Assembly (NCBI GenBank): GCA_017509785.1
Contig: JAFWOT010000012.1
Span: 1,544 to 65,543 of the forward strand
Reading direction: 5' to 3'
DNA length: 64,000 nucleotides
DNA from: Clostridia bacterium
Lineage (GTDB): Bacteria > Bacillota > Clostridia > Christensenellales > CAG-138
Shown here: piece by piece, positions 14,280 through 28,880 of the stretch
Position numbering within the stretch: the stretch's first letter is position 1
Layout: the number at the start of each line of letters is the position of its first letter
Program-made: the position numbers and the translations under genes
Notes under the pieces: generated by a model
What the model saw: only the letters and a program-made list of their open reading frames with translations
Told to the model about the DNA's origin: nothing
Databases searched by the model: none

Positions 14280-17192
14280 ATGCCGGGAACTTTCACGGAA
14301 CAAAACGTTGAGGATATGGTCATTCATGCAGTCGAATCAAACGGCTGGGACTATATTCGTGCAGATGACCTGCCCAGAGCAGAGTCAGATGTGCTGGTGG
14401 AAAAGCATCTACGTGCTGCCCTTATTAGGCTGAATCCTTGCATCGCGGAAAATCCAGCACATGCTGATACCGTGATCTATAAACTGCGGGCATTGATATC
14501 TACAGTTCGTCCTCACGATCTCGTCACGCAGAATGAACGTTTCAAAAAGCTCATTTTCGAGGAAAACAGCTTCCCCTTCGACAAAGATGGAAGGTCGATC
14601 AGCATCAAGTTCTTCGACTATGATAACCCGGAGAACAACACTTTTGTGGTGACCAATCAGTGGGTGTACCCACAGAAGGTAGGTGGAAAGCGGCTCGACG
14701 TCGTTCTGCTCATCAACGGATTCCCTGTCGCCATCGGAGAAATGAAGTCGCCGGTCAGACCGTCGATTAGCTGGATGGATGGCGCAGGTGATATTCTCGA
14801 TTATGAGAAATCGATTCCGGAAATGTTTGTCACAAACATTCTGAACTTTGCGACTGAGGGCAAGTGCTTCCGATATGGTGCGATCAATGCACCGGTCACC
14901 CTGTGGGGTCCGTGGTATTCCAATATTCCGCATGAAGAAGGCGATCTGACAAAGGTACAGAAAGCCGTTGCCTCTATCACGCGGAAAGAGGTCATCCTTG
15001 ACCTGTTCCGTTATTTCACTTTGTTCTCCACGGATAAACATAACCGCAAGATCAAGATCGTATGCCGTTACCAACAGTATGAAGGTGCAAACCTCATTGT
15101 CGATCGTGTCAAGGCAGGATACCCGAAGAAGGGCTTGATCTGGCATTTCCAGGGTAGCGGTAAATCCCTGCTGATGGTGTTCGCTGCACAGAAGCTTCGC
15201 ATGGTGAAGGAGTTGAATGCGCCGACCGTTATCATCGTAAATGATCGCATTGATCTGAGTGGGCAGATTTTCGGCACCTTCTCCATGGCTGACGTGCCAA
15301 ACCTTGTACCGGCAGACACGAACGCCGAATTGATTCGCCTCCTCAAAGCGGATTCACGTAAAGTGATTATCACTAAGATTTTTGAGTTTGCTCAGATCAA
15401 CGAAGCGATCAACTATCGTGATAACATAATCCTGATGGTGGATGAAGCACACCGGACACAGGAAGGTGACCTCGGTGCAAAAATGCGAATGGCGCTTCCT
15501 AACGCATTCTTTTTCGGCCTGACGGGCACACCCATAAACAAATTGGATCGGAATACGTTTGCCACCTTCGGCGCAACCGAGGATCGTTCAGGTTACATGA
15601 GCCGGTATTCCTTCGCGGATTCCGTCAGCGATAAAGCCACCCTTCCACTGCACTTTGAACCGGTACCGGTCAAGCTGCATGTGGATCAGGCAGCAATCGA
15701 TGAAGCATTTAAGGCTCTTGCCGATGAAGCTGGGCTCACCGAGGAAGAACGCTCGAAGGTCGCGCAGCGCGTTCGTATGGCTGCTATCATGAAGGATCCG
15801 GAACGAATCAAAGCGGTGTGTGCTCATATCGCCGACCATTTCATGTCAAAGGTGAACCCCAACGGATTCAAGGCACAGGTAGTTTGCTACGATAGAGAAT
15901 GCTGTGTGCTATACAAGAAGGAATTGGATAAACTTCTTGGCGAGGCAACGTCTACAATCGTTATGGACACCAATAACGATAAGGCCGATGTGTATAAAAA
16001 ATGGCGTCGTACCCGTGAAGAAGAAGCAAAGGTATTGGATGACTTCCGCGATCCGAATAACCCGCTGCAGATAGTAATCGTAACAAGCAAACTGCTTACT
16101 GGATTCGATGCGCCGATATTACAGGTTATGTACCTTGATAAACCAATGAAGGATCACACTCTGCTTCAGGCCATTTGTCGGACGAATCGTGTATACGGGC
16201 AGGACAAAACATATGGTCTCATTGTTGACTACGTTGGCATTTTCGACGACGTCGCAAAGGCGCTAGCGTTTGACGCAGATGCCGTCGAACGGATCATCAC
16301 CAATATCGAGAGCGTAAAAGCGAAAGTTCCACAGCTTGTGGCGGCTTGCATTGGCTTTTTCCCGGGTGTGGACAGAACCCGTGATGACTGGGAGGGGCTT
16401 GTTGCTGCTCAGGACTGCTTGCCGAATGATGAAATGAAAGATAAGTTCGGCGCACAGTATCGTGTGTTGAATCGCGTTTGGAATGCGCTTTCGCCGGACA
16501 ATTGCCTCAATCCTTTCAAAGAGGACTACAGATGGCTGTCGAAGGTTTACGATTCTATTCGTCCGACCGATGAACGCGGCAAATTGATTTGGGCTGCACT
16601 CGGCCCCAAGACGCTTCAGCTCGTTCATGACAATATCTCCGTTGAAGAAGTTGGTACAGATGAAGACATCCTTGCAATGGATGCCGAAATCATCCAGCGG
16701 TTTATAGAAGGCGATCCAAATGCGGAGAAAAAACGCAGAAAGATCGAAATAGATCTTGCCGCTATTATCCGAAAACACCCGGACGATCCTCGATTTATTG
16801 CGCTTGGCGCACGTATGGAAAAGCTCCGTGAAGAGCATGAGGCAGGCCTGCTTACCAGCATGGAGTTCCTGAAGGCTTTGCTTGAGCTCGCAAAAGATGT
16901 GGCACAGGTGGAAAAAGAAGTTGTGCCAGAGGAAGAAGTCGATAAAGGAAAGGCAGCACTGACATCTCTTTTCCAGAATGTCAAGAATGACAACACCCCT
17001 ATCATAGTCGAACGTATTGTGAATGACATCGATGGGATCGTTAGGATCGTCCGCTTCCCTGGCTGGCAGAACACTTCCACCGGTAGGAAAGAAGTCAGCA
17101 AAAACCTTCGTGATGTTATCATGCGCAAGTACCGGATTAAGGATCAGGAAGTGTTTGCGAAAGCATATAGTTACGTGGAGCAGTACTATTAA
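14280..17192 (+). CDS. hsdR: Type I restriction endonuclease subunit HsdR
   Basis: 970-aa protein. N-terminal nuclease region, Walker A-like HFQGSGKS, DEAH-type box MVDEAHR, helicase C motifs TGFDAP...QAICRTNR. Confidence 0.9.
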   Translation: MPGTFTEQNVEDMVIHAVESNGWDYIRADDLPRAESDVLVEKHLRAALIRLNPCIAENPAHADTVIYKLRALISTVRPHDLVTQNERFKKLIFEENSFPFDKDGRSISIKFFDYDNPENNTFVVTNQWVYPQKVGGKRLDVVLLINGFPVAIGEMKSPVRPSISWMDGAGDILDYEKSIPEMFVTNILNFATEGKCFRYGAINAPVTLWGPWYSNIPHEEGDLTKVQKAVASITRKEVILDLFRYFTLFSTDKHNRKIKIVCRYQQYEGANLIVDRVKAGYPKKGLIWHFQGSGKSLLMVFAAQKLRMVKELNAPTVIIVNDRIDLSGQIFGTFSMADVPNLVPADTNAELIRLLKADSRKVIITKIFEFAQINEAINYRDNIILMVDEAHRTQEGDLGAKMRMALPNAFFFGLTGTPINKLDRNTFATFGATEDRSGYMSRYSFADSVSDKATLPLHFEPVPVKLHVDQAAIDEAFKALADEAGLTEEERSKVAQRVRMAAIMKDPERIKAVCAHIADHFMSKVNPNGFKAQVVCYDRECCVLYKKELDKLLGEATSTIVMDTNNDKADVYKKWRRTREEEAKVLDDFRDPNNPLQIVIVTSKLLTGFDAPILQVMYLDKPMKDHTLLQAICRTNRVYGQDKTYGLIVDYVGIFDDVAKALAFDADAVERIITNIESVKAKVPQLVAACIGFFPGVDRTRDDWEGLVAAQDCLPNDEMKDKFGAQYRVLNRVWNALSPDNCLNPFKEDYRWLSKVYDSIRPTDERGKLIWAALGPKTLQLVHDNISVEEVGTDEDILAMDAEIIQRFIEGDPNAEKKRRKIEIDLAAIIRKHPDDPRFIALGARMEKLREEHEAGLLTSMEFLKALLELAKDVAQVEKEVVPEEEVDKGKAALTSLFQNVKNDNTPIIVERIVNDIDGIVRIVRFPGWQNTSTGRKEVSKNLRDVIMRKYRIKDQEVFAKAYSYVEQYY

Positions 17193-17608
17193 TGCGGAAA
17201 GGGCGGTATGCGATGGAACCAATTGAACTAAACAATAGCACGTTTTCTAGGAGCATCCTTGATAAAGCCACCTTCTTTCAAATTGCAGAAGGCGGCGCAA
17301 TGGGAGAACCCGGAGGGATTATTATTCTAACTGAAGACGGGACAGTTTATCATGCGAATTATTGCTTTGGTGACCTGAAATGGGAAACCATCCAGCACGC
17401 ATTTCCTATCATAGAGCAATGCCGATTTGGGATGTTTGGGATTGACTCGGAAGTTCCTAATGGGTGGAACTATGTAAATCTTGGAATGGGAAACCATCTG
17501 ATAGTTCGGCAAGACCGATATGATAAATTCTCGCCGTTAATATCCGATTGCAAATCCCCCGGCGAGATTTATCAGAAGTGGCTAGGCTATGCGAAAAGCA
17601 TCGATTAA
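17192..17608 (+). CDS. Hypothetical protein
   Basis: ATG overlaps the hsdR stop; an alternative ATG lies at 17213. I recognise no motif. Confidence 0.4.
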   Translation: MRKGRYAMEPIELNNSTFSRSILDKATFFQIAEGGAMGEPGGIIILTEDGTVYHANYCFGDLKWETIQHAFPIIEQCRFGMFGIDSEVPNGWNYVNLGMGNHLIVRQDRYDKFSPLISDCKSPGEIYQKWLGYAKSID

Positions 17609-17640
17609 TCACGGTATTGATACTTACGAGGTATTAACCT

Positions 17641-18618
17641 ATGGAAAACGACCCAAAACTTCGCCCATTGTATCTGGCGAAAATCTTATATGAACGTACT
17701 GACGAGGATCATTATCTGACCACGGCGCAGTTGATGGAAATCCTCGATAAAGAATACGGCTTCAAAGTGCATCGGCAGACGATTCCGGCCGATGTGGAAG
17801 CGCTGCGTTCCTTTGGCATGGAGATTCAGGAAGTGATGTCCGCCCAGAAGCGCTACAACCTGATCAGCCGGGAGTACGATGTCGCTGAGCTGAAGCTCCT
17901 GATCGATGCGGTGGAGTCTTCCAAGTTCATCACCAAGAAAAAGAGCGAGGAGCTGGTGGCCAAGCTATCCAAAATAGCCGGCCAGCATCAGGCTGAGAAG
18001 CTGAAGCGCAACATTTCTCCCGAGGACCGTATCAAATACGATAACGAGAGCATTTACCTGATCATTGACGGGATCAACGAGGCCATCAATGCCGGAAAGA
18101 AGATCTCCTTCCTGTACTTCAAGTATGATGTCCGGAAGGAGCAGAAGCTGCGAAATGATGGGAAGCCGTGGACTTTCAGCCCGCACCGGCTGGTCTGGAA
18201 CGGTGATTTCTATTACATGGTCGGCGTCTTTGATAACGGCAAGAAGGTCGGGACCTTCCGTTTGGACCGGATCCTTAAGCGCCCTGATATCCTGGAGGAA
18301 GACGCTCTTCCCTTCCCGAAAGGCTTTGATTTTGAGAAGTATCTGCAGACGAGCTTTCGGATGTACGGAACAGAGTATACAACCGTGGATCTCATCTGTA
18401 AGAACGATCTGATGGACGCGATCCTGGACAAGTTCGGCAAGGATATCACCACATATGCCTATGACATGGAAAACTTCCGTGCCGAGGTAGATGTTGTGGT
18501 CAGCAGCGTCTTCTTCAGCTGGGTATTTGGATTCGAAGGAGAGGTCGTGATCAACGGACCCGCAGATGTGAAGGAAAAGTATAAAGAGATGGTTCTGAAG
18601 GCGGCAGAGAAGGTATGA
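17641..18618 (+). CDS. WYL-domain transcriptional regulator (BrxR/CapW-like architecture: wHTH + WYL + C-terminal domain)
   Basis: N-terminal winged helix (YLTTAQLMEILDKEYGFKVHRQTIPADVEAL). WYL core ISFLYFKYD...FSPHRLVWNGDFYYMVG...GTFRLDRI. Confidence 0.8.
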   Translation: MENDPKLRPLYLAKILYERTDEDHYLTTAQLMEILDKEYGFKVHRQTIPADVEALRSFGMEIQEVMSAQKRYNLISREYDVAELKLLIDAVESSKFITKKKSEELVAKLSKIAGQHQAEKLKRNISPEDRIKYDNESIYLIIDGINEAINAGKKISFLYFKYDVRKEQKLRNDGKPWTFSPHRLVWNGDFYYMVGVFDNGKKVGTFRLDRILKRPDILEEDALPFPKGFDFEKYLQTSFRMYGTEYTTVDLICKNDLMDAILDKFGKDITTYAYDMENFRAEVDVVVSSVFFSWVFGFEGEVVINGPADVKEKYKEMVLKAAEKV

Positions 18619-18629
18619 GGTAAACATAT

Positions 18630-19859
18630 ATGCAGCTTGGTTGGGTGGATTTTTCAAAAGCAGATCGAGAGAAAGTTCTTGATGTAATGAACCTGTTACA
18701 GGAACAGGGAGCGGTCGATGAGATTGGCATCGGCCTTATTCGCGATGCTTTTGCAAACTATTTTTTCCCTGGAACATCTACTGTTCAGACCAGAGCTAAG
18801 TATTTCTTTATCGTCCCGTATATCCTTCAGGAAGCAATATCAGGGAAGTATGGCAACCAGGTCAATTCAATACTGCAGAAGATTGATGCCGAAGAAAAGA
18901 ATTGTGGACTTCTTCTTTATCAGAAGTCTCTTGATGAAGGAATCAATCCCATTGGCGTCGGTATCATCGGCGCCAGAGTGCTTCCTCAAAACTGGGTGGC
19001 AAGAAAACCGTCAAATATCTATTGGAACGGCATAAGGACGTATCACATTTTTGAGCAGGAAAACATGACCATTCCAGATATGGTCAGATTATCCGTGCTT
19101 ATGCGAGCCCAGGCGAAGCCAGACAAGTTGGGCAATCGCAGAGATGATGCAGAGGAAGGCGAAAAAGATGACATCGACGCCGGGAGAAATGAATCCATAC
19201 ACTTTTTTGATCTTCCAGAAATGATAGATATGGATTGGCGCAACCATCTGGATATTGCATTAACAGAAACCGAAGCGTCTTTTCTGCGTACAAAGATAGA
19301 GAGATCCGTCACGGATACTCTGCTGGCATACATCTTGAGGAATAATATTGATCTAGCAAAATATGATCGGTTTGAACAACTGTATGCAGATCTAAAGGAC
19401 GTTGTGCCTGCTGAAATGGCAGACATAATGAAACTGGCATGCGACTTCAACCGCCTGGTATATGCTGCACGTGTGCGTTATAACATGATCCTTTCGAGAG
19501 GGCTGAATGAAGCTGCGCTTTCAGAGTGGGAACAGATAGAAAGCAATATAGCATGGTACACGAGTGTAGATCTTGAGTCTGTCTTAGCATTTCTTGGGAG
19601 ACCAGACTTTCGCTTGCGCAGGTTTTTGCTCAATCTACAGGCAGCATTAAGATCACACGATATCGAAAAGGCCGATGAAATCATAGTATCCAGAGAGATT
19701 GAATTAAAGACCAGGGCAAGAGCGAAACTTTGCCATTCGGAGGACTATAACCCCAACAACTGGGTCGGCGGTCGTTATCTCGATTATCGTTTTGACGACG
19801 CCAAACAGATTGTGTCAGACATATATGATGGAGAGGAGGTTGCTCATGTTTCGGACTAA
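18630..19859 (+). CDS. Hypothetical protein, first gene of the PLD/helicase module (possibly a DUF-only family such as DUF6361; unverified)
   Basis: 409-aa protein. The conserved-looking N-terminus is WVDFSKADREKVLDVMNLL...VDEIGIGLIRDAFANYFFPGTSTVQTRAKYFFIVPY. No catalytic motif is recognisable. Confidence 0.5.
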   Translation: MQLGWVDFSKADREKVLDVMNLLQEQGAVDEIGIGLIRDAFANYFFPGTSTVQTRAKYFFIVPYILQEAISGKYGNQVNSILQKIDAEEKNCGLLLYQKSLDEGINPIGVGIIGARVLPQNWVARKPSNIYWNGIRTYHIFEQENMTIPDMVRLSVLMRAQAKPDKLGNRRDDAEEGEKDDIDAGRNESIHFFDLPEMIDMDWRNHLDIALTETEASFLRTKIERSVTDTLLAYILRNNIDLAKYDRFEQLYADLKDVVPAEMADIMKLACDFNRLVYAARVRYNMILSRGLNEAALSEWEQIESNIAWYTSVDLESVLAFLGRPDFRLRRFLLNLQAALRSHDIEKADEIIVSREIELKTRARAKLCHSEDYNPNNWVGGRYLDYRFDDAKQIVSDIYDGEEVAHVSD

Positions 19860-21687
19860 CAGCAATCAGGACCGTGTGAATTATAGCAACGCTCTTCTTC
19901 CTCCGGATGGATATGTGCTGGAAAAAGCTGTTGGTACTACGTATTCATTGGACCTTGAAGCACTGACGGCTGTATGCATTGCGCTGGGGCTAAAAGAGGA
20001 TCCCGACAGTGACCTCCTGCAGAATCCAATCAGCATGCTTAATGCGCTGGTAAAGGTCTCGGAGAAAATACTGGTTTTCTGTGAAGCAGGACAGATAAAA
20101 AAGCCGTCGACACCTTCTCCGCTCATGTTGCTCTTGGATAAAATGGTTATTCCGGTTACCTTACCTCGGAAGCAGAAAGAAAGCAGGTTCCCGTCTTTTC
20201 ATCCTAAAACATGGGTTCTGCAGTATTGCAATCAGGAAGGGAACCGTAAGTATCGGTTTGTCGTATTGAGTCGTAACCTGACATTTGACAGAAGCTGGGA
20301 TGTCAGTGTGTGCATTGAAAGCTCTGATGATGTCACGCAACCGGAGAAAACGAAACCAGTTATTTCGTTCCTGGAGTTTCTGAGGAAACAGATTGATAGA
20401 ACCAGACCAGACTGTCAAAAGAAGCGGCAGCTTGTCAAAGAATTGTGCTCAGAATTGAATGAAGTTTCTTTTTCGCTGGGTGACAAAAGATTTGGCGAGA
20501 ATTTCACGATTATGCCCCTTGGGATCGGGACAGATGGTTTTGATTTAACAAAAGACCCCTTGTATTTTCAGGGGCTGTATCAAGCAGACTATTCTTTTCA
20601 TGAGTTAGTCGTTTTTTCTCCATTCCTCAGCAGTTCTGTCATTGATTATTGGAACAGACCAGAGCACACCCTGACCAATACAACCAGGACATTGATAACA
20701 AGGCGCTCCGAGCTACCCAAACTGACAGCTGATCAGGTCAGCCGCTTTCGTGTTTATGTCCTAAAGGATGACATTGTAGATGGTGAGGAATACATATCGG
20801 ACGAAGCTTCAGAAAAACAAAAGCAGGATATCCACGCAAAAATCTATATCCGACGGAAATATGGCGATGTTGACCTCTACATGGGGTCTATGAACGCATC
20901 TTATGCGGCGATACATGAAAATGTCGAGATGATGGTTCGCATAGGAACCCGGTGGAAGTATTACGACGGGCAAACCTTCTTGAAGGAGATCTTTTGCGGA
21001 GAAGAGAATTCTCCGGCAAACCCGTTTGAGGAAGTTCAGGTCCCTGCTGAGAAACAGGATGTCCCAGAGGATGAAACAAAAGTCCTTGAGCAGGTGATCA
21101 AAGAATTCTGCCGCCTCAAAAAGCGGGCAGAGGTTGTCTCTTCAGGTGAGAAATATAATGTGGTTGTGCACCTGGACGGAACGCTTAGAAGCGGAGACGT
21201 GGAGGTAACCTTGGCACCACTGCGGAGGCCGAATTTTAGTCCTCTTAATGGAGAAATGGTTTTCCATGATATGGAACTCCTTCAGCTAACAGACTTTTAT
21301 CAAGTCAAGGTGAAACGAGAGTCTGCAGAAGTAACCCGTATTATCACGATTCCGACATCTGGACTTCCGGAAGAAAGAGAAAGCGCTGTTGTGAACAGCG
21401 TAATCAAAGATAAGCGCAGTTTTGTTGAATATATCGCCTTTATTTTGGGAGACGATTATCTGCTCACACTGCTTGAAGAGTCTATTCTGGGCAAATCCGG
21501 ATTCTACGGCAATCAGGCTGATCGGCTGCCAGCATTGTACGAGAAAATGCTCAAGACAGCGCTTGAAGAGCCAGCTCGGTTAAAAGAAATCGAATATGTC
21601 CTTAAAATGATTCATGATAAGGATATCATTCCAGACGAATTCAGGGCACTCTACGGTACATTTAAAGCAACACTCGGCCTGGGCTGA
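19846..21687 (+). CDS. Phospholipase D (PLD) family nuclease-like protein
   Basis: Two HxK motifs: FHPKTWVLQ...VVLSRNLTFD and IHAKIYIRR...YMGSMNAS. ATG at 19846 follows GGAGAGGAGG and overlaps the upstream gene by 14 nt. Confidence 0.8.
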   Translation: MFRTNSNQDRVNYSNALLPPDGYVLEKAVGTTYSLDLEALTAVCIALGLKEDPDSDLLQNPISMLNALVKVSEKILVFCEAGQIKKPSTPSPLMLLLDKMVIPVTLPRKQKESRFPSFHPKTWVLQYCNQEGNRKYRFVVLSRNLTFDRSWDVSVCIESSDDVTQPEKTKPVISFLEFLRKQIDRTRPDCQKKRQLVKELCSELNEVSFSLGDKRFGENFTIMPLGIGTDGFDLTKDPLYFQGLYQADYSFHELVVFSPFLSSSVIDYWNRPEHTLTNTTRTLITRRSELPKLTADQVSRFRVYVLKDDIVDGEEYISDEASEKQKQDIHAKIYIRRKYGDVDLYMGSMNASYAAIHENVEMMVRIGTRWKYYDGQTFLKEIFCGEENSPANPFEEVQVPAEKQDVPEDETKVLEQVIKEFCRLKKRAEVVSSGEKYNVVVHLDGTLRSGDVEVTLAPLRRPNFSPLNGEMVFHDMELLQLTDFYQVKVKRESAEVTRIITIPTSGLPEERESAVVNSVIKDKRSFVEYIAFILGDDYLLTLLEESILGKSGFYGNQADRLPALYEKMLKTALEEPARLKEIEYVLKMIHDKDIIPDEFRALYGTFKATLGLG

Positions 21688-21707
21688 TTTCAGGAGATGA
21701 CTGACAG

Positions 21708-24700
21708 ATGAAATTCGATATAGACAGAACAGAATATCTGACCATGAATGTCCTGAAGGATTTCCAGAGAGCGACCGTGGAGCGTATTGACGCTCTCTTC
21801 CGGAAAGGACAAGGGCGTATTCTTGTTGCCGATGAAGTCGGTATGGGTAAAACCTTAATAGCGAGAGGTGTCATCGTCAAAACTGCCCGGCTGCGGCTCG
21901 AAGAGGGAGATGACCTGTTTAAAGTTGTCTATATTTGTTCAAACATCAGCATCGCAAACCAGAATATTCGCAAACTGAAGGTCTCTGACAGCGCTACCAT
22001 TGAAGGAGTTTCCGATACCAGACTTTCTATGCAGCATCTAAAAATCACCCAGCAGGAACTCGATCCCGAACTTCGTGATGGATACATTCAGCTGATTCCG
22101 TTGACGCCTGATACCTCGTTCCGCATGACCACAGGAGGCGGAACCGTAAATGAGCGAGCGTTAATGTATGCAGTGCTCCGCAGAATGCCTGAATTTTCCG
22201 ATGTTCTCACTGAATTAAGGAGTTTTCTTAAGTATTCGGTTTCCAAGGAGGACAGCTGGAATTACTATATAGATCTTTATGAAGGCTATGTAAAAAGCTG
22301 TGAAGACAGGACCCAAGGACGTTATCCTTATGATTTGATTGATTGTATTCGCGACTATGATCGAGAAGAATCAATAAATGCTCTGTTAAAGCAGCATTTA
22401 CAAGAGCGGATGACGAAGCAACATCCGTCACATTCTGGCACGTTTGTTTTGAACAAGCTGAGAGTCATGTTCGCAAGGCTCAGTACACAGATGCTTGAAC
22501 CGGACCTTGTAATCATGGATGAATTCCAGCGCTTCAGGTTCCTGATTAACTCTGACCGGGAATCTGACACTGGTATTTTGGCTCATCAGTTTTTAGAAGG
22601 CGGAAATGTAAGAATTCTGCTTCTTTCGGCCACACCCTATAAACTCTATTCCACACTGGAGGAAATCGATGATGCGGCAGGCGTCGATGAACACTACAGA
22701 GAATTCCTGCAGGTGATGGATTTCCTCTTTAAAGGAAACACCAAAGACTTCCGTAAGGTTTGGTCGGATTATAATGTTGCTCTTCATGAATTGCATGATG
22801 GCGATACATCCATTATTCGTGTAAAAGACGCTGCAGAAGACGCGATGTATCAGGGCGTTTGCCGGACAGAACGGATTTCAGTCATGGAGTCCGGGGACTA
22901 CACAGATGACAGTAGTGTAAAGTTCCCGATTTCGGTGTCGGAAGAAGACATTCGCTCATTCCTTGCGATGGGAACTCTGTTAAAAGAGATTGGGGCGTCG
23001 TTCTCGCTTCCTGTTGACTATGCAAAAAGCAGCCCCTTCCTAATGTCTTTTATGCGCAACTATAAAGTAAAACAGCACATTGAGCGTTACTTCCAAAAGC
23101 ATACAGAGGATGTGAAGCTGGCTGATAAAGATCTCTTGTGGGTCGATCCAGAACAGGTTAATGCCTATCGGGCCCTTCCTGCGTCAAATGCTCGTTTGGA
23201 AAAGTTGAAGGAACTCGCTTTTGAAAACCATGCTGAAATGTATCTGTGGGTTCCTCCATCAAAACCGTATTATGAGATGCAGGGAGTTTATAGGAATAGT
23301 CATCATTTTTCCAAGATACTGGTCTTTTCCGCATGGGAAATGGTACCGCGAATGATAGGTGCCATGATTTCGTATGAAGCAGAATGCCGTACTGTCGGAC
23401 GTGTTTGCGCAAATGCAGAAGGAATTGAAGAGAAAAACAGGACTTATAATGCAGAACGCAGATATCCGTACCCACGCTTGAAGTTCTCTGTAAGCGGGAA
23501 TACACCGCAAAGGATGACATTGTTCTGCCTTTTATACCCGTCTGCGACATTGGCAGATTTATTCGACCCTGTTCAAGCGCTGAATGCAGATTTGACATTG
23601 GCAGAAATTGAAGCTGGCATCAGATCACAAGTGATGACGCGCTTGCGTGATCTCCGAAAATATACAACTGCAGAAATGAGGACTGCCGACGCCAGATGGT
23701 ATTATATTGCTCCGATGCTGATGGATGGTATTGAATATACCGAGAATTGGATCGAAGCACTGAACCGATCAATGGAGAACGCCTCTGAAGATGGTGAAGA
23801 CGGAATATCCAGTGACCGTGGCAATAAGGCATTCAGTATGCATGTTGGACGGCTATTGGAGCTGATTACTCAAGGCGACAAACTGTCTTTGGGTCCCATG
23901 CCGGAAGATCTTACGGAAACGCTTGTGAACATGACGCTGGGATCCCCTGCCGTTTGTATTTACAGGTCTAACAGAAAGAACGTTATCTATGCAACAGCAT
24001 TGGCCAAGACGTTCCTGAACTACTTCAATACTACGGAATCTACTGCTGTTATCCAGCTCGCTGCAGAACAATACCGGGCTGAGTCTCAGGATGATACCGT
24101 CTACTGGAAGGATGTTTTGCTCTACTGCAAAAACGGATGTTTTCAGGCAATGTTTGATGAATACCGGCATCTGATATCTGACGCCGCAGGCTTCTCTGCA
24201 GCATCACAAAAGGAGGCACGGATCCAGAGAACAATGCTGGAGGATCTTCGTATCCATACGGCTTCTTATGATGTTGATACTTATGAGAAATTCCAGAACC
24301 GGATCCAGGGAGAAAAGGGCCGAAACCTGATGAGAGCGCATTATGCGGTCGGTTTCGTCAATAATGAGGGTACGGATAATCAAAAGGACGCGAACAGGAA
24401 AGACAGTATTCGTGGAGCTTTTAACTCTCCCCTGAAGCCATTTGTCCTGGCAACAACATCTATCGGACAGGAAGGACTGGATTTCCATAACTACTGCAGG
24501 AGAATAATGCACTGGAATCTTCCCGGAAATCCCATTGATTTGGAGCAGCGTGAAGGCAGAATCAACCGCTTTAAGTGCCTGGCAATCCGGCAGAATGTTG
24601 CTGAAAAGTATGGCACGATTCACTTTTATGATGATATTTGGAAAGAGATGTTTGAAGCGGCGGAATCTGAGAAAGCCTCTTCTCAGTCAGATTTGGTGCC

Positions 24701-26105
24701 GTATTGGTGCTTTGGAAAAGACCAGAGTATCAAGATCGAACGTATTGTTCCTATGTATCCAATGAGCAAGGATGAGATCACGTATGAAAGGCTCATTAAA
24801 ATATTGTCCTTGTATCGTTTAACCCTTGGGCAAGCAAGGCAGGAAGAACTACTGGAATATCTGTTCCAGGAGTGTAAGAATCCGGAAGAGCTGAAAAAGC
24901 TTTTTATTGATTTAAGCCCGTTTACAAAGGAGGGCTATGCGGAGAGTAGACCACTTGATATCATTCAGAAAGGCGAAAGCGCCGCTCAGCAGGAACCCGC
25001 AAAAACGAAAAAACTGTCTGGCAAAGAGATTTTGATCGATCGCGCTATTCAGGCATATATCAAGGATTTTGATCGCAACAACCATCGTGATGACAATTCT
25101 CTGAGAGACGAGACCATCAAATGGAAAGCTGCGGCAAACTTTGCCCGGAATTGGGATGTGGATGCGGTTGATATGCTTTCCATGTGGAAGCGGTGTACTA
25201 AAAGTGCGTTTATTGATACCAGGCACAATCACCCTACGCAAGGAATAACACTACTCCTGAAAAATCCTGCAGAAGTGGACGGGGTTCGCAGCGCTTTCAA
25301 GGCCCTATTTGTTAAAGAAACAGATGATGTCGAGGGAAAATGGGATCGCATTCTGGCTTTCCTTGAGTACATTAATGGAAGGCTTACTGAACTGCATCCA
25401 AACTCGTCCATTTATCTTCAAACGAAAGAAGCTGTTCTTACATATTTGAACTTGTGGGATCCCGATCATAACTATCGATACAAACCAGCGCCGGCAAATA
25501 ATTGGGCGTCCTATATGGGATATACCGATTGGGAGTCCGGTCAGCGCTTCTCTCTTCGAAAGTACTATAAGATGTGCGACGAGATACAAGAAGTGGTTAA
25601 GAATCATGCAGAGCTGCTTCAAGTTCATCGCCAGAGATTCGAAAACGGAGATCCTGATTACGATAAAGAACTGCATATTTTGACGTTTGATATCCTTTAT
25701 TGCTTCTGGAGTTATGAGGATGCTCGACGGGAGGCTCTGGAAGAATATCAGGAGGCAATGAAACAGCAGCGGATAGATGACTTGGAAGATCAGCTATCCA
25801 AGATAAGAATCGAGATCAAAACAAAAGAAGGCTTGATCCGTGATCCGAATTGTCTGGGTATTAAAGTTCGGCATAAAAAGTTTGGCGCGGGAGAAGTAAA
25901 AAACATCGCAAACGGGAAGCTGGAAGTGTTGTTTGAAAGTGAGGGGACTAAACAGTTCTTATATCCCGCCGCTTTTGAGAATGGCTTCCTGCAACCGGAA
26001 GAACCTTCAATTATGGAGCAGTTTCGCCTTAATAAGACCTTGGAAGAAGAATTATTATTGCTTCGAGAGAAGGCTGAACAGCTTCAGTCTGAACTGGTTG
26101 AGTAA
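21708..26105 (+). CDS. SNF2/SF2-family helicase with a ~500-aa C-terminal extension
   Basis: Motif I ADEVGMGKT, motif II IMDEFQRF, motif III LLLSATP, motifs V/VI TSIGQEGLDFH...LEQREGRINRF. The C-terminus GIKVRHKKFGAGEVKNIANGKLEVLFESEGTKQFL resembles the PcrA/UvrD Tudor domain. Confidence 0.85.
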   Translation: MKFDIDRTEYLTMNVLKDFQRATVERIDALFRKGQGRILVADEVGMGKTLIARGVIVKTARLRLEEGDDLFKVVYICSNISIANQNIRKLKVSDSATIEGVSDTRLSMQHLKITQQELDPELRDGYIQLIPLTPDTSFRMTTGGGTVNERALMYAVLRRMPEFSDVLTELRSFLKYSVSKEDSWNYYIDLYEGYVKSCEDRTQGRYPYDLIDCIRDYDREESINALLKQHLQERMTKQHPSHSGTFVLNKLRVMFARLSTQMLEPDLVIMDEFQRFRFLINSDRESDTGILAHQFLEGGNVRILLLSATPYKLYSTLEEIDDAAGVDEHYREFLQVMDFLFKGNTKDFRKVWSDYNVALHELHDGDTSIIRVKDAAEDAMYQGVCRTERISVMESGDYTDDSSVKFPISVSEEDIRSFLAMGTLLKEIGASFSLPVDYAKSSPFLMSFMRNYKVKQHIERYFQKHTEDVKLADKDLLWVDPEQVNAYRALPASNARLEKLKELAFENHAEMYLWVPPSKPYYEMQGVYRNSHHFSKILVFSAWEMVPRMIGAMISYEAECRTVGRVCANAEGIEEKNRTYNAERRYPYPRLKFSVSGNTPQRMTLFCLLYPSATLADLFDPVQALNADLTLAEIEAGIRSQVMTRLRDLRKYTTAEMRTADARWYYIAPMLMDGIEYTENWIEALNRSMENASEDGEDGISSDRGNKAFSMHVGRLLELITQGDKLSLGPMPEDLTETLVNMTLGSPAVCIYRSNRKNVIYATALAKTFLNYFNTTESTAVIQLAAEQYRAESQDDTVYWKDVLLYCKNGCFQAMFDEYRHLISDAAGFSAASQKEARIQRTMLEDLRIHTASYDVDTYEKFQNRIQGEKGRNLMRAHYAVGFVNNEGTDNQKDANRKDSIRGAFNSPLKPFVLATTSIGQEGLDFHNYCRRIMHWNLPGNPIDLEQREGRINRFKCLAIRQNVAEKYGTIHFYDDIWKEMFEAAESEKASSQSDLVPYWCFGKDQSIKIERIVPMYPMSKDEITYERLIKILSLYRLTLGQARQEELLEYLFQECKNPEELKKLFIDLSPFTKEGYAESRPLDIIQKGESAAQQEPAKTKKLSGKEILIDRAIQAYIKDFDRNNHRDDNSLRDETIKWKAAANFARNWDVDAVDMLSMWKRCTKSAFIDTRHNHPTQGITLLLKNPAEVDGVRSAFKALFVKETDDVEGKWDRILAFLEYINGRLTELHPNSSIYLQTKEAVLTYLNLWDPDHNYRYKPAPANNWASYMGYTDWESGQRFSLRKYYKMCDEIQEVVKNHAELLQVHRQRFENGDPDYDKELHILTFDILYCFWSYEDARREALEEYQEAMKQQRIDDLEDQLSKIRIEIKTKEGLIRDPNCLGIKVRHKKFGAGEVKNIANGKLEVLFESEGTKQFLYPAAFENGFLQPEEPSIMEQFRLNKTLEEELLLLREKAEQLQSELVE

Positions 26106-26130
26106 TAATCCTTTCAGGTGGTGATCGAAG

Positions 26131-26805
26131 ATGGGTATTACCAAGACTGATTTCATGCGCGGAATGCAATGCCGGAAGATGTTATGGCTTGATAAACACA
26201 AGCCGAATCTGAAAGTCATTCCGCCAGAGGTACAAATGAGGCTTGACGCAGGAAATGACTTCGGTGACCGGGCTATGGCCATGTTTGGTGAGTATGAGGA
26301 GATGACTGTCTATCGCCCCGGGACAACCATTCCGGACACGAAGGCAATGGTCGAAAAGACGGCGGAGCATCTTGCGAAAGGCACTCCTGTGATCTGTGAG
26401 GCGGCGTTCATTTACTATAACAACTACTGTGCCGTGGATATTCTGCGAAAAACTGAGACGGGATACGATTTCTATGAGGTCAAGAATGCCCCGATGGTCT
26501 ATGACCAGTTCATCCGGGATGCTGGATTCCAGTATTACATCATGAATCGCTGCAAGCTGAACATTGGCAAAATCTTTATTGTGACCCACGGCGAGGACGA
26601 AGAGAATCCCTTTGTTTCGAACGATGTGACTGTAAAGGCCAAAGGATACGCAAAGTGGATCAACGATAACATCTGGGATTTAAATCGGATGCAGAAACAG
26701 CCGGAGGAAGTACAGATAGAGATTGGCGAGCAGTGCACGAAGCCCTATGAATGCTGGTATTACGGGTATTGCCACCATTTAAGCGAGGTTGAGGTGAATG
26801 AGTAA
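26131..26805 (+). CDS. Cas4/AddB-like PD-(D/E)xK nuclease with Fe-S cysteines (DUF2779-like)
   Basis: N-terminal GMQCRKMLWL. Catalytic-type motif DILRKTETGYDFYEVKN. C-terminal Cys cluster CTKPYECWYYGYC. Confidence 0.7.
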   Translation: MGITKTDFMRGMQCRKMLWLDKHKPNLKVIPPEVQMRLDAGNDFGDRAMAMFGEYEEMTVYRPGTTIPDTKAMVEKTAEHLAKGTPVICEAAFIYYNNYCAVDILRKTETGYDFYEVKNAPMVYDQFIRDAGFQYYIMNRCKLNIGKIFIVTHGEDEENPFVSNDVTVKAKGYAKWINDNIWDLNRMQKQPEEVQIEIGEQCTKPYECWYYGYCHHLSEVEVNE

Positions 26806-27235
26806 TTCTGATAATCCGAAAAATGGAGCACTTTTTCAATCGAGCGTTCGGGACTGGTTTCAGGATCATTATAAGATACCATTTGAGCTTGAGAAAAAGC
26901 TGCCTATAGGTAGCCCCTCTAAAGATCACAAGTTCGATATCGTTGATTCTGCCAACACGATTGCGATCGAATGCAAAAGATACACTTGGACGGAAACAGG
27001 CAATGTGCCCAGCGCGAAATTGGGTTTTTTGAACGAGGCTGCATTTTACTTGTCTTTTCTGCCTGACAGCTACAGCAAGTACATTGTTATGATGTATTCT
27101 TTCCATGAAAAGCGGAAAGAGACTTTGGCAGAATACTATTATCGGACATATCGCCATTTGCTAGGGGATATTCAGGTTGCAGAATTCGATCCTGCAAGCA
27201 ATACGATGAAAATCATTGGAGACGGAAATCATTAA
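26798..27235 (+). CDS. Small putative PD-(D/E)xK (restriction-endonuclease-fold) protein
   Basis: FDIVDSANTIAIECKRYTW fits D-x(n)-E-x-K. The gene overlaps the upstream gene by 8 nt. Confidence 0.4.
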   Translation: MSNSDNPKNGALFQSSVRDWFQDHYKIPFELEKKLPIGSPSKDHKFDIVDSANTIAIECKRYTWTETGNVPSAKLGFLNEAAFYLSFLPDSYSKYIVMMYSFHEKRKETLAEYYYRTYRHLLGDIQVAEFDPASNTMKIIGDGNH

Positions 27236-27269
27236 TGCCAAGGCTTTATAAACTACAAAGGATAAGCAA

Positions 27270-27788
27270 ATGAGACTACTGTTTGAAATTGATAAAAAGG
27301 ATTATGGTGGCTGCACACATACTTTTACACGGGATTCTGCCAGAAGTATCATTACCAAAAACGGTAAGATCGCCATGATTCACAGCTTGAAGTATGACTA
27401 CTATAAATTTCCGGGCGGGGGGATCGAGCCTGGGGAAAGCGCAGCTGATGCATTGATCAGGGAGACATCCGAGGAAGCCGGACTGATCGTGATCCCGGAT
27501 TCTATACGGGAATACGGATATGTCCACCGGATTCAGAAGAGCACGGTGAAAGAGGATGAGTATTTCGTGCAGGATAACTATTATTTCCTGTGCGACGTGG
27601 AAGACGGTATCAGGCCACAGAAGCTGGATGACTACGAATCAGACGAACATTTTACCCTGAAATATGTAAAGCCTGAAACTGCCATTCTCAGCAACCGGAC
27701 CAAAGACCATGGACCGAAGGATCCCGTAATGATTGAACGGGAGGCTCGAGTTCTTGAAATGTTACTGTCAGAAGGGCTGATAGAATAA
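27270..27788 (+). CDS. NUDIX hydrolase
   Basis: Nudix box GGGIEPGESAADALIRETSEEAGL. Confidence 0.85.
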   Translation: MRLLFEIDKKDYGGCTHTFTRDSARSIITKNGKIAMIHSLKYDYYKFPGGGIEPGESAADALIRETSEEAGLIVIPDSIREYGYVHRIQKSTVKEDEYFVQDNYYFLCDVEDGIRPQKLDDYESDEHFTLKYVKPETAILSNRTKDHGPKDPVMIEREARVLEMLLSEGLIE

Positions 27789-27839
27789 CAGATTCCGGTC
27801 TGTCGGGATGGGCCCCATAGTAAAAGTTTAACCAGAGGT

Positions 27840-27876
27840 CTCGGAGCAACACTGCTCCGAGGCCTCTTTCCTTTTG
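27840..27876 (+). terminator. Rho-independent terminator closing the defence operon
   Basis: CTCGGAGCA (27840-27848), loop ACAC, TGCTCCGAG (27853-27861), followed by GCCTCTTTCCTTTTG. Confidence 0.75.
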
Positions 27877-27962: not shown

Positions 27963-28013
27963 AGCCACACCAAGCAGGAGCAAGCTGCTCCAGATAGAAA
28001 TGAGGTGGCTTTA

Positions 28014-28628
28014 ATGCAACACAAGAACGTTGAACTGATGAAACAGATCAATACCTATATCGGTGAGTTTTACCTCTCCCACGACAGGACGCCTTCTACT
28101 ACGGAGATCGCCAGAAAGTTCGGCATCTCCCGGAGCTCTGCCCAGCGGTACCTTGTCGCCATGAACGACAGCGGAATGCTCTCCTACAGCGGGGGCAAGC
28201 TCAAAGTCGATCAGATGACCAAGATCCGGACGGACCGTACAACGGCTCCTCTAGTCGGGTCTGTTCCCTGCGGCGAACTGACCTATGAAGAGGAAAATGT
28301 GGAATGCGTGATGACGCTTCCCACGGAGATCTTCGGATCCGGTCCTTTCTATCTGCTTCATGCTTCCGGAGATTCCATGGAGGACGAGGGCATCGAGGAT
28401 GGCGACCTGATCGTCGTCCGGATCTGCGAGGAAGCAAAGAAGGGTGATCTGGTAATCGCCCTGGATGCGGAGAACCGGAACACGCTGAAGAAGTTCGGCG
28501 GCATGAGCCGGAAGAATCACAAGGCCATACTCCAGTACTGCAATCAGGGCGTGTACGGCAACAAGGTCATCTATGTGGATCAGCTGGTCTGCCAGGGTGT
28601 GGTCAGCCATGTTATCAAGACAAAGTAA
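28014..28628 (+). CDS. LexA-like repressor (winged HTH + S24 peptidase)
   Basis: N-terminal HTH (TPSTTEIARKFGISRSSAQRYL). S24 catalytic serine context HASGDSMED and lysine context NTLKKF. A GTG at 28005 is an alternative start. Confidence 0.8.
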   Translation: MQHKNVELMKQINTYIGEFYLSHDRTPSTTEIARKFGISRSSAQRYLVAMNDSGMLSYSGGKLKVDQMTKIRTDRTTAPLVGSVPCGELTYEEENVECVMTLPTEIFGSGPFYLLHASGDSMEDEGIEDGDLIVVRICEEAKKGDLVIALDAENRNTLKKFGGMSRKNHKAILQYCNQGVYGNKVIYVDQLVCQGVVSHVIKTK

Positions 28629-28657
28629 TTAACGGTTGTTTCGAGGAGGAATTAGCG

Positions 28658-28879
28658 ATGGGACTTTACAATGTGGTCTGCCCCTGCTGCGGGCATGTAA
28701 ATAAGCATCTGTATCTTGAGGAGACGGAAGGCTTCTTTGAATGCGAAGCCTGCGGCCAGGTATCTTTTACAAAGGACTATATGACAGACACTTCATCGGG
28801 GGATGAAATCAAAAAACTGAAAAAGGCTATGACAGGAGCGATCTTCCCTGCTGGAGAAACATATAAGAAGGCGGTCTGA
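28658..28879 (+). CDS. Small zinc-ribbon protein
   Basis: CPCCGH...ECEACGQ. RBS GAGGAGG. Confidence 0.5.
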   Translation: MGLYNVVCPCCGHVNKHLYLEETEGFFECEACGQVSFTKDYMTDTSSGDEIKKLKKAMTGAIFPAGETYKKAV

Positions 28880-28880
28880 A

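What the first reader, a model, noticed from the sequence alone, without database searches (positions are those of the whole stretch)
18630..26105. Three-gene module (unknown 409-aa protein + PLD nuclease + giant SNF2 helicase): candidate anti-phage system
The three genes are tightly coupled: a 14-nt overlap at 19846/19859 and a 20-nt gap at 21687/21708. The module sits between a type I R-M locus and further nucleases, inside ICE cargo, directly behind a WYL regulator.

- Gene 1 has no catalytic motif I can recognise, only a conserved-looking N-terminus (VDEIGIGLIRDAFANYFFPGTSTVQTRAKYFFIVPY).
- Gene 2 has two HxK PLD motifs.
- Gene 3 has all SNF2/SF2 motifs.

PLD nuclease plus SF2 helicase pairs are a hallmark of DISARM (DrmC with DrmA/DrmD). 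I also recall three-gene PLD+helicase systems such as Azaca (ZacABC). Here there is no DUF1998 protein and no dedicated methyltransferase inside the operon, so this is not canonical DISARM. I cannot verify membership of any named family from sequence alone.
Basis: partly seen in the sequence, partly recalled or inferred. Interest (0 to 1): 0.8.

Follow-up and report, generated by a model that had tools for sequence, protein, structure and literature searches.

The report
Azaca defence operon, extended helicase
The three genes are a complete copy of the already described Azaca anti-phage system (ZacA, ZacB nuclease, ZacC helicase) carried on a mobile element; its only unusual feature is that the helicase is fused to an extra 366-residue module ending in a UvrD/PcrA-type Tudor domain.

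Summary
Three intact, tightly packed genes lie at 18630-19859, 19846-21687 and 21708-26105.

They are not a new system. PADLOC models assign them full-length to ZacA (1.1e-86), ZacB (5e-142) and ZacC (E=0, 1028 bits).

- **Synteny:** the order ZacA-ZacB-ZacC recurs in every one of about 60 related loci that hold enough DNA.
- **Catalytic residues:** the ZacB HxK pairs (H119/K121, H330/K332) and the ZacC Walker A, DEFQ, SAT and QREGR motifs are intact.
- **Published function:** Azaca ZacABC cleaves phage T4 DNA and protects more than 10^6-fold against T4. Cleavage needs all three proteins, the nuclease active site and the ZacC Walker A motif.

What differs here is ZacC. It is 1465 aa, against 972-1129 aa in 56 of 60 complete homologues. 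Residues 1100-1465 are a fused copy of a widespread, unannotated stand-alone protein of about 370 aa. That protein has a helical domain, a coiled coil and a PcrA/UvrD-like Tudor domain.

The operon sits in a defence island on an integrative mobile element, directly behind a WYL regulator.

Verdict: a known system with a minor architectural variant. Interest is low to moderate.

The parts
17641..18618 (+). WYL-domain transcriptional regulator (HTH + WYL + WCX-like). It ends 11 nt upstream of zacA and is the likely regulator of the operon.
   Evidence: PADLOC WYL 2.8e-24. Pfam WYL 6.8e-09. The same position is occupied in L005, L006 and L090, and related WYL genes lie upstream of Azaca in L012, L015 and L036.
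18630..19859 (+). zacA: a 409-aa DUF6361 protein. It is the non-catalytic third subunit of Azaca.
   Evidence: PADLOC ZacA 1.1e-86, covering residues 2-402 against profile positions 4-394 of 396. Pfam DUF6361 6.5e-22. 41 positions are at least 97% conserved in 77 sequences. The AF2 model is all-helical with pLDDT 65 and has no PDB fold match.
19846..21687 (+). zacB: a 613-aa PLD-family nuclease with two HKD-type half-sites in one chain (HPK at 20200-20208, HAK at 20833-20841).
   Evidence: PADLOC ZacB 5e-142, covering 6-610 against 4-581 of 586. H119, K121, S142/R143/N144, H330, K332 and G347/S348/N350 are at least 97% conserved in 68 sequences. Motif coordinates were verified. The Pfam PLDc_2 hit is below threshold.
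21708..24926 (+). zacC core (aa 1-1073): SF2 helicase/translocase. Walker A GMGKT at 21840-21854, DEFQ at 22518-22529, SAT at 22626-22634, QREGR at 24546-24560.
   Evidence: PADLOC ZacC E=0, 1028 bits, covering aa 12-1073 against profile positions 9-1018 of 1019. 185 positions are at least 97% conserved in 55 sequences, including all motifs. Motif coordinates were verified.
24927..25004 (+). Fusion linker (ZacC aa 1074-1099). It is variable and poorly conserved, and corresponds to a former stop codon plus intergenic spacer.
   Evidence: Junction alignment. Short ZacC proteins end at ...DLSPFSKEG. Long forms read on through a linker of about 24 variable residues. pLDDT is below 50.
25005..25715 (+). 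Fused module, helical N-domain (ZacC aa 1100-1336). It is homologous to the N-terminal part of a stand-alone family of about 370-aa proteins, and its function is unknown.
   Evidence: It starts exactly where the stand-alone proteins start (MKKLSGKE). The family has 1750 representatives at E<=1e-3. There is no Pfam hit and no PDB fold match for this part.
25716..25835 (+). Fused module, long helix / coiled coil (ZacC aa 1337-1376).
   Evidence: AF2 model helix 264-303, pLDDT 83-95.
25854..25982 (+). Fused module, PcrA/UvrD-type Tudor-like beta-barrel (ZacC aa 1383-1425). Signature: V-x-H1389-K-K-F1392-G-x-G ... F1409 ... K1415-x-F1417.
   Evidence: The top 7 Foldseek hits are all UvrD/PcrA/UvrD1 C-terminal Tudor domains (TM 0.51-0.78, 22-35% identity). 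phmmer against 7egs_B and 6yi2_A gives E of about 0.3. Pfam PcrA_UvrD_tudor matches below threshold here (E 0.008) and in 9 of 15 family members (best 2.7e-4). The signature is conserved in 131 diverse family members.
26004..26105 (+). Fused module, C-terminal amphipathic helix (ZacC aa 1433-1464) and the stop codon.
   Evidence: AF2 helix 360-391, pLDDT about 90. Translation checked.
26131..27235 (+). Two small overlapping genes (224 aa and 145 aa) that travel with the long-form zacC. The first has a PD-(D/E)xK-like D103/E116/K118 plus four invariant Cys. It is not established that they belong to the Azaca unit.
   Evidence: They are conserved downstream of long ZacC in L005, L006, L088, L089 and L090. 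Alignment A3 shows the invariant residues. No HMM or PDB hits.
27834..27867 (+). The only strong intrinsic terminator on the + strand between 17.0 and 28.2 kb (15-bp stem). It follows the NUDIX gene (27270-27788) and is the likely 3' end of the transcription unit.
   Evidence: NUDIX assignment from Pfam, 3.6e-15.

Best explanation
The locus is a complete Azaca (ZacABC) anti-phage system. It is carried as cargo of an integrative mobilisable/conjugative element of a gut Clostridia-type bacterium and lies directly behind a WYL-type regulator.

**Mechanism, by homology to the characterised Azaca systems.** ZacA (DUF6361), ZacB (PLD nuclease) and ZacC (SF2 ATPase/helicase) assemble into one complex. 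ZacC uses ATP, through Walker A K48 and the DEFQ box, to load or translocate on invading DNA. ZacB cuts the DNA through its single-chain two-HxK active site, with little sequence specificity. ZacA is an obligatory non-catalytic subunit. Published data point to preferential attack on hypermodified (T4-type) phage DNA.

**What is shown and what is inferred.**
- Shown here: gene content, gene order, intact catalytic residues and synteny across about 60 loci.
- Taken from the literature: complex formation, cleavage of T4 DNA, and the requirement for all three proteins.
- Inferred: that this particular copy is active in its own host.

**What is particular to this copy.** An adjacent stand-alone gene has been fused in frame to the 3' end of zacC. 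This adds a helical domain, a coiled coil and a PcrA/UvrD-type Tudor domain (aa 1100-1465). My inference, at about 25% confidence, is that this Tudor domain tethers the ZacABC motor to a host protein. The RNA polymerase beta subunit is the best-precedented partner. Such a tether would localise or gate the nuclease.
For: **Assignment to Azaca**
- PADLOC gives full-length hits: ZacA 1.1e-86, ZacB 5e-142, ZacC E=0. Pfam finds DUF6361 in gene 1.
- The order ZacA-ZacB-ZacC on one strand is seen in every related locus with enough DNA. These come from Clostridia, Bacteroidales, Treponema and Fusobacterium.
- Catalytic residues are at least 97% conserved across 55-77 homologues and are all present here.

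**Published function**
- ZacABC cleaves T4 DNA and gives more than 10^6-fold protection. All three proteins, the nuclease active site and the ZacC Walker A motif are required.

**The fusion**
- 56 of 60 complete ZacC proteins are 972-1129 aa. Only 4 are about 1465 aa.
- 14 protein clusters (74-96% identity) share the long form.
- The junction alignment shows read-through into a gene that still begins with Met in several long forms.
- The stand-alone family is large.
- The same module is a separate gene just downstream of zacC in L050 and L026.

**The Tudor domain**
- Supported.
- Residues equivalent to the RNAP-binding H681, W684 and K712 of PcrA (PMC5397179) are H1389, F1392 and K1415.

**Context**
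-.
Against: - No experiment was done on this copy.
- The characterised Azaca systems (Bm, Kp) have not been aligned directly with it. Membership rests on the PADLOC profiles.
- ZacA has no recognisable fold, so its role is unknown. Published mutants of its conserved residues had no effect.
- The target preference for T4-type modified DNA comes from one preprint and may not transfer to gut Clostridia phages.
- Every single line of evidence for the Tudor assignment is below standard thresholds: Pfam 16.4 bits against a cut-off of 23.9, and Foldseek E of 0.02-0.15.
- Tudor domains of UvrD-family proteins also bind UvrB and Ku, so RNAP is only one candidate partner.
- Stand-alone copies of the module have heterogeneous neighbours. 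The module may therefore be an independent defence-island gene that merely became fused.
Confidence: 0.85

Rival explanations
1. The C-terminal module is an independent defence-island gene with its own function. It became fused to zacC by accidental loss of a stop codon. It contributes nothing to Azaca, and the locus is functionally a plain Azaca plus a passenger.
For: - Nearly all of about 1750 family representatives are stand-alone proteins of 360-390 aa.
- Their neighbours are heterogeneous: HsdR, GmrSD_N proteins, an AAA ATPase, macro-domain proteins, an SNF2-SWIM helicase and WYL regulators.
- Most Azaca loci lack the module.
Against: - The fusion is kept intact in at least 14 protein clusters that have diverged to 74% identity, with no stop codon or frameshift.
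- The module lies next to zacC as a separate gene in two distant Azaca loci, L050 and L026, and close to distant Azaca genes in L109 and L105. This recurrent linkage argues for a functional connection.
Confidence: 0.3
2. The module is a DISARM-like or other PLD+helicase system (DISARM class, Mokosh, or an unnamed new family) rather than Azaca.
For: - ZacB has a weak DrmC hit (E 3.4e-4, 18 bits over 45 residues).
- ZacC hits DrmD, DrmA and DpdE models over aa 890-960 only.
- NCBIfam DrmD scores 53 bits.
Against: - These hits cover only the generic helicase C-lobe or the HKD motif, and they are 10-20 times weaker than the Zac hits.
- NCBIfam DrmD scores 53 bits against a cut-off of 610.
- There is no DUF1998/DrmB protein and no methyltransferase in the operon.
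- No Mko model hits any of the three proteins.
Confidence: 0.03
3. The three genes serve the mobile element itself (DNA processing, entry exclusion or stabilisation of the ICE) rather than phage defence.
For: The operon lies between the relaxase/anti-restriction genes and the integrases of a mobile element. It is co-directional with them, and no terminator is found until 27834.
Against: - The same operon occurs in many unrelated contexts without conjugation genes, for example L007 beside a PLD-helicase restriction enzyme, Fic and AIPR genes.
- Its neighbours here are R-M genes and a WYL regulator, which is typical defence cargo.
- Homologous systems protect against phage when expressed alone.
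Confidence: 0.05

Closest known systems
Azaca (ZacABC). Attributed to Millman et al. 2022 in PMC10952713. BmAzaca and KpAzaca are characterised in bioRxiv 10.1101/2025.07.10.664194.
   Same: - Same three protein families, in the same order and orientation.
- Full-length matches to the PADLOC ZacA, ZacB and ZacC models.
- PLD HxK pairs and ZacC Walker A/DExx motifs intact.
- DUF6361 in ZacA.
   Different: - ZacC carries 392 extra C-terminal residues: a 26-aa linker plus a 366-aa module with a Tudor domain. These lie outside the ZacC profile and are absent from 56 of 60 complete homologues.
- The host is a gut Clostridia-type bacterium, and the operon sits on an ICE behind a WYL regulator.
- No activity data exist for this copy.
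DISARM (DrmA/DrmB/DrmC with DrmD or DrmE and a methylase)
   Same: It combines a PLD-family nuclease-like protein with large SF2 helicases, and it resides in defence islands.
   Different: - No DUF1998 (DrmB) protein.
- No operon-internal methyltransferase.
- The Drm models match only short generic segments, far below the family cut-offs.
Mokosh and other nuclease-NTPase defence systems (Hachiman, Gabija, AbpAB)
   Same: The general logic is shared: a nuclease effector is controlled by a larger NTPase/helicase within one complex. Mokosh also uses a PLD domain.
   Different: - Different protein families. No Mko, Ham or Gaj model matches the three proteins.
- Azaca needs a third subunit, DUF6361.
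- Unlike AbpAB, Hachiman and Mokosh II, Azaca needs the NTPase Walker A motif for cleavage.
C-terminal Tudor domain of PcrA/UvrD/UvrD1 helicases (PDB 5dma, 6yi2, 7egs, 7egt, 9dqs; Pfam PF21196)
   Same: - A small beta-barrel placed at the C-terminal end of a helicase.
- Shared signature V-x-H-x-x-[FW]-G-x-G ... K-x-[LF].
- 22-35% identity and TM 0.5-0.78 to the model.
   Different: - Here it is attached to an SF2 helicase, not an SF1 helicase.
- It is embedded between two long helices and preceded by a helical domain of about 240 residues of unknown fold.
- Sequence scores are below threshold.
- The binding partner is untested.

Membership tests
Azaca | ZacA: DUF6361-family protein | tested here: met
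   PADLOC ZacA 1.1e-86, full length. Pfam DUF6361 6.5e-22, 78.5 bits against a cut-off of 25.
Azaca | ZacB: PLD-family nuclease with conserved HxK active-site residues | tested here: met
   PADLOC ZacB 5e-142, full length. H119/K121 and H330/K332 are present and at least 97% conserved in 68 homologues.
Azaca | [quoted passage not shown] | tested here: met
   PADLOC ZacC E=0, 1028 bits, covering profile positions 9-1018 of 1019. GMGKT, DEFQ, SAT and QREGR are present and conserved.
Azaca | All three genes adjacent and co-directional in one operon | tested here: met
   A 14-nt overlap and a 20-nt gap. The same order occurs in all related loci with enough DNA.
Azaca | ZacABC complex formation, ATP-dependent cleavage of phage DNA, and protection against phage | not testable with these tools
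   Known only for BmAzaca and KpAzaca from the literature.
DISARM | DrmB (DUF1998) and DrmA helicase present | tested here: not met
   No DUF1998 or DrmB hit in any of the 8 proteins from 17192 to 27788. DrmA matches only 57 residues of the ZacC helicase C-lobe.
DISARM | DrmD/DrmC equivalogs above the family cut-off | tested here: not met
   NCBIfam DISARM_DrmD scores 53 bits against a cut-off of 610. PADLOC DrmC scores 18 bits over 45 residues.
DISARM | Dedicated methyltransferase inside the operon | tested here: not met
   None between 17641 and 27788. The HsdM genes at 7079-10985 belong to the separate type I R-M locus.
Mokosh | MkoA/MkoB/MkoC-type helicase and PLD proteins | tested here: not met
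   No Mko model among the PADLOC hits of the three proteins.
PcrA/UvrD Tudor domain (PF21196), for ZacC aa 1383-1425 only | Pfam model above the gathering score | tested here: inconclusive
   16.4 bits against a cut-off of 23.9 (E 0.008) in this protein. 9 of 15 family members match below threshold, best E 2.7e-4.
PcrA/UvrD Tudor domain (PF21196), for ZacC aa 1383-1425 only | Tudor-like five-stranded barrel fold resembling solved PcrA/UvrD C-terminal domains | tested here: met
   The model has pLDDT of about 90 in this region. The top 7 Foldseek PDB hits are all UvrD/PcrA/UvrD1 Tudor domains, with TM 0.51-0.78 and rmsd 1.8-3.4 A.
PcrA/UvrD Tudor domain (PF21196), for ZacC aa 1383-1425 only | Binding to RNA polymerase beta (or UvrB) | not testable with these tools
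   The only support is conservation of residues equivalent to PcrA H681, W684 and K712.

The most novel reading that the evidence does not exclude
The long-form ZacC defines an Azaca subtype in which the nuclease-helicase complex is physically coupled to RNA polymerase, or to another host machine, through a PcrA/UvrD-type Tudor domain.

More broadly, the unannotated family of about 370-aa proteins (about 1750 representatives at 50% identity) may be a general adaptor. It could link restriction-type motors such as ZacC, HsdR, GmrSD and SF1 helicases to the transcription apparatus in defence islands.
Probability: 0.2. Interest if true: 0.6.

Novelty: new variant of a known kind. Interest (0 to 1): 0.3.

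Why it matters
As a three-gene system it adds nothing new. It is Azaca, and standard defence-finding HMMs would label it. Showing this removes a false lead.

The residual value lies in three points:
1. **A natural gene fusion.** The fusion, together with two loci where the same module is a separate gene next to zacC, ties a large uncharacterised defence-island protein family to a characterised nuclease-helicase system. That gives the family its first testable functional context.
2. **A concrete hypothesis.** The module's PcrA/UvrD-like Tudor domain suggests recruitment to RNA polymerase. This could explain how a nuclease with little sequence specificity is localised or gated.
3. **An example of spread.** The locus shows Azaca spreading as ICE cargo in gut anaerobes under a WYL regulator.

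Tried and rejected
- **ZacA fold.** The AF2 model from a 15-sequence alignment has low confidence (pLDDT 65, N-terminal DUF6361 part below 70). Foldseek against the PDB found nothing (best E 2.1). No fold or mechanism could be assigned.
- **N-terminal helical domain of the fused module.** No PDB fold match. No Pfam, PHROG or NCBIfam family.
- **The 224-aa and 145-aa downstream proteins.** No hit in PADLOC, Pfam, NCBIfam or PHROGs, apart from a marginal RusA-like hit at E 0.0066 for the 145-aa protein. No PDB hit by sequence or by profile. The nuclease reading of the 224-aa protein rests on an invariant D/E-x-K plus four Cys.
- **An obligate partner for the stand-alone module.** A census of neighbours in 80 metagenome loci gave heterogeneous neighbours and no single partner. 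My crude gene caller also picked spurious antisense ORFs on high-GC contigs, and I discarded these.
- **Phage origin of the module.** A scan of IMG/VR viral contigs found no relative, so an anti-defence (phage-encoded) origin has no support.
- **The module as a hidden fourth Azaca gene.** Rejected as a general rule. The short-form locus L007 and most others have unrelated genes after zacC.
- **RNA elements and promoters.** Rfam found nothing inside 17-28 kb. The promoter scan was not above the shuffled background.
- **DISARM and Mokosh readings.** Considered and rejected; see the membership tests.


Full report
**1. Observation**

The three ORFs are present exactly as described: 18630-19859 (409 aa), 19846-21687 (613 aa from the ATG) and 21708-26105 (1465 aa). 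The mechanical ORF of gene 2 extends back to TTG 19792. The ATG at 19846 follows a GGAGAGGAGG Shine-Dalgarno sequence, and the ZacB profile aligns from residue 6 of that product.

The 14-nt overlap and the 20-nt gap are exact. All three frames are intact.

**2. Identity**

A scan against PADLOC-DB assigns gene 1 to ZacA (1.1e-86, residues 2-402 against profile positions 4-394 of 396). It assigns gene 2 to ZacB (5e-142, 6-610 against 4-581 of 586). It assigns gene 3 to ZacC (E=0, 1028 bits, residues 12-1073 against 9-1018 of 1019).

Pfam adds DUF6361 for gene 1, a below-threshold PLDc_2 hit for gene 2, and Helicase_C, DEAD and ResIII for gene 3. All other defence models (DrmC, DrmD, DrmA, DpdE, BrxH) touch only 45-120 residues of generic helicase or HKD sequence. 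NCBIfam's DrmD equivalog scores 53 bits against a cut-off of 610.

**3. Conservation and synteny**

A scan of one genome per GTDB species with a ZacA alignment returned 80 loci. They come from Clostridia (Eubacterium, Ruminococcus, Blautia, Lachnospiraceae, Oscillospiraceae), Bacteroidales, Treponema, Sphaerochaetaceae and Fusobacterium.

In every locus with enough DNA, ZacA is followed on the same strand by ZacB and then ZacC.

In alignments of 55-77 homologues the following are at least 97% conserved, and all are present here:
- ZacB: H119, K121, S142/R143/N144, H330, K332 and G347/S348/N350.
- ZacC: G45/G47/K48/T49, D271/E272/F273/Q274, S307/A308/T309 and Q947/R948/G950/R951.

**4. What is known about Azaca**

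PMC10952713 lists Azaca among PLD-domain systems and attributes it to Millman et al. 2022.

A 2025 preprint (10.1101/2025.07.10.664194) reports the following:
- Purified BmAzaca preferentially degrades T4 DNA. The authors suggest that glucosyl-hydroxymethylcytosine may be the cue.
- Cleavage requires ZacA, ZacB and ZacC together, the nuclease active site and the ZacC Walker A motif.
- Mutating conserved ZacA (DUF6361) residues has no effect.
- The cut-site motif is highly degenerate (A^NT).

The mechanism I adopt for this locus is that one, carried over by homology. No step of it was tested on this copy.

**5. What differs: ZacC is a fusion**

The ZacC profile ends at residue 1073 of 1465.

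- *Length.* Of 60 complete ZacC homologues in the fetched loci, 56 are 972-1129 aa. Only four are about 1465 aa: two metagenome contigs at 96% identity and two Eubacterium sp. MAGs.
- *Clade.* In the 5.8-billion-protein search, 14 clusters (74-96% identity, 1465-1480 aa) share the long form. The next relatives (58-74% identity) are about 1075 aa and cover 73% of the query.
- *Stand-alone copies.* The extra 392 residues match stand-alone proteins of about 370 aa at 58-71% identity.
- *Family size.* An exhaustive profile search finds 1750 representatives (E<=1e-3; 234 at <=1e-30). Almost all are 360-390 aa and stand-alone.
- *Junction.* Short ZacC proteins stop at ...DLSPFSKEG. The long forms read through about 24 variable residues and then enter the module exactly at the start Met of the stand-alone proteins (MKKLSGKE). 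Several long forms still keep that Met. This is a fusion of two adjacent genes by loss of a stop codon.
- *Ancestral arrangement.* It survives in L050, where a 377-aa module gene lies 236 nt after zacC. It survives in L026 as zacC, then a 215-aa gene, then a 383-aa module gene. Distant Azaca genes also lie near stand-alone modules in L109 and L105.
- *Not universal.* The short-form locus L007 has unrelated Fic genes after zacC, so the module is not a general fourth gene.

**6. Anatomy of the module**

An AF2 model (pLDDT 74 overall, about 90 for the last 110 residues) shows four parts:
- a helical domain (ZacC 1100-1336);
- a 40-residue helix;
- a small beta-barrel (1383-1425);
- a terminal helix.

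The seven best Foldseek matches in the PDB are all C-terminal Tudor domains of UvrD, PcrA or UvrD1. They include 7egs (bound to the RNAP lobe), 7egt (bound to UvrB), 6yi2, 5dma and 9dqs. TM scores are 0.51-0.78 and identity is 22-35%.

Two sequence searches point the same way. phmmer gives E of about 0.3 against 7egs_B and 6yi2_A. Pfam PcrA_UvrD_tudor gives E 0.008 here and matches 9 of 15 family members, best 2.7e-4.

Each line is weak alone, but they agree. The signature G-x-x-V-x-H-K-x-F-G-x-G...F...K-x-F is kept across 131 family members with a median of 26% identity to the window's module.

In PcrA, H681, W684, K712 and L714 are needed for RNAP binding (PMC5397179). The equivalents here are H1389, F1392, K1415 and F1417. 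Recruitment to RNAP is therefore my leading hypothesis, but it is untested. UvrB-like or Ku-like partners are also precedented.

The helical N-domain has no match anywhere.

**7. Is the module tied to Azaca or merely a neighbour?**

A metagenome scan with the module alignment gave 80 loci. Four of them are long-ZacC fusions.

In the rest, neighbours vary. They include:
- HsdR;
- GmrSD_N proteins directly upstream;
- an AAA ATPase;
- an HSDR_N_2 protein;
- an SF1 helicase of more than 1583 aa;
- macro-domain and ADP-ribosylglycohydrolase proteins;
- an SNF2-SWIM helicase;
- HNH and DUF4238 proteins;
- WYL regulators in roughly a dozen loci.

No relative was found in viral contigs.

The module is thus a defence-island or ICE-cargo gene with no single obligate partner. 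It often sits just after a restriction-type motor or nuclease. The passenger-fusion rival therefore stays open at about 0.3. Long-term maintenance of the intact fusion and the repeated linkage to zacC argue for a functional link.

**8. Context**

Positions 1 to about 37.3 kb form a mobile element. In order along the window, it carries:
- a topoisomerase (Pfam Topoisom_bac);
- an ArdC/DarA-type anti-restriction protein;
- a MobA/VirD2 relaxase;
- a type I R-M locus with two hsdM genes, hsdS, a Xer-like recombinase, hsdS fragments and hsdR;
- a 138-aa ORF;
- the WYL regulator;
- zacABC;
- the 224-aa and 145-aa genes;
- a NUDIX gene;
- LexA-like, ImmA/IrrE and ImpB/UmuC genes;
- a DUF6551 gene;
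- two tyrosine integrases.

GC content is 45-49% over 6-28 kb, against 55-64% in the flanking chromosome. That chromosome encodes a dockerin protein, UvrC and a cluster of seven tRNA genes.

All genes from 7079 to 27788 are co-directional with short gaps. The only strong + strand terminator between 17.0 and 28.2 kb is at 27834-27867.

Close relatives (L005, L006, L090) keep the block WYL, zacABC(long), 224 aa, 145 aa. Public records name these proteins only 'hypothetical protein'.

**9. Verdict**

The one new element is the ZacC-Tudor-module fusion, found in a small clade. It links a large uncharacterised protein family to Azaca and yields a testable tethering hypothesis.

Interest is low to moderate.

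Noticed in passing
window 7079-10985: There are two tandem type I hsdM genes. The first (808 aa) has an N-terminal ADP-ribosylglycohydrolase domain fused to HsdM_N + N6_Mtase. ADP-ribosylglycohydrolase and macro-domain genes also recur next to stand-alone copies of the ZacC C-terminal module in other loci.
   Followed up: partly
window 10955-14276: A full hsdS (10955-12103) is followed by a Xer-like tyrosine recombinase (12096-13106) and two partial hsdS cassettes (13126-13752, 13719-14276). The cassettes share 23-58-nt repeats with the full hsdS (D1 and D2, three copies each). This looks like a phase-variable specificity locus, but the repeats are direct rather than inverted.
   Followed up: partly
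window 26131-26805: A 224-aa protein with invariant D103...E116-x-K118 and four invariant cysteines (C14, C202, C208, C214) resembles a Cas4/RecB-type Fe-S nuclease by eye. It has no HMM or PDB hit. It follows long-form ZacC in all close relatives, and a 30-32% homologue follows a short-form Azaca in L012.
   Followed up: partly
window 26798-27235: A 145-aa protein of unknown function overlaps the 224-aa gene by 8 nt. Homologues also lie directly next to stand-alone copies of the module: in L001 downstream, as the N-terminus of a 347-aa protein, and in L142 upstream.
   Followed up: partly
window 17192-17608: A 138-aa ORF of unknown function lies between hsdR and the WYL gene. A 49% homologue sits immediately upstream of a stand-alone module in L109, which also has a distant Azaca 2 kb downstream.
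   Followed up: no
L026 7360-8007; L027 16321-16950; L011 16309-16953; L058 9340-10008: A family of about 215-aa proteins recurs immediately downstream of zacC in three loci and immediately upstream of zacA in one. It may be another facultative Azaca-associated gene.
   Followed up: partly
L002 3-5907: A stand-alone copy of the module (68% identity) lies 40 nt downstream of an SF1 helicase of more than 1583 aa. The helicase has AAA_11/AAA_12 domains and resembles MkoA/TmtA.
   Followed up: partly
window 32916-32978: An Rfam pemK RNA motif (51.5 bits, above the gathering score) lies upstream of a DUF6551 gene (33140-33925).
   Followed up: no
window 28005-31105: The element carries an SOS-like module: a LexA-like S24 peptidase/HTH protein, an ImmA/IrrE M78 peptidase and an ImpB/UmuC-family polymerase.
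   Followed up: no
window 34732-37346 and 57562-58364: Two tandem tyrosine integrases mark the probable end of the element. GC content rises from 45-53% to 55-64% beyond them. A cluster of seven tRNA genes lies 20 kb further on and is not adjacent to the integrases.
   Followed up: no
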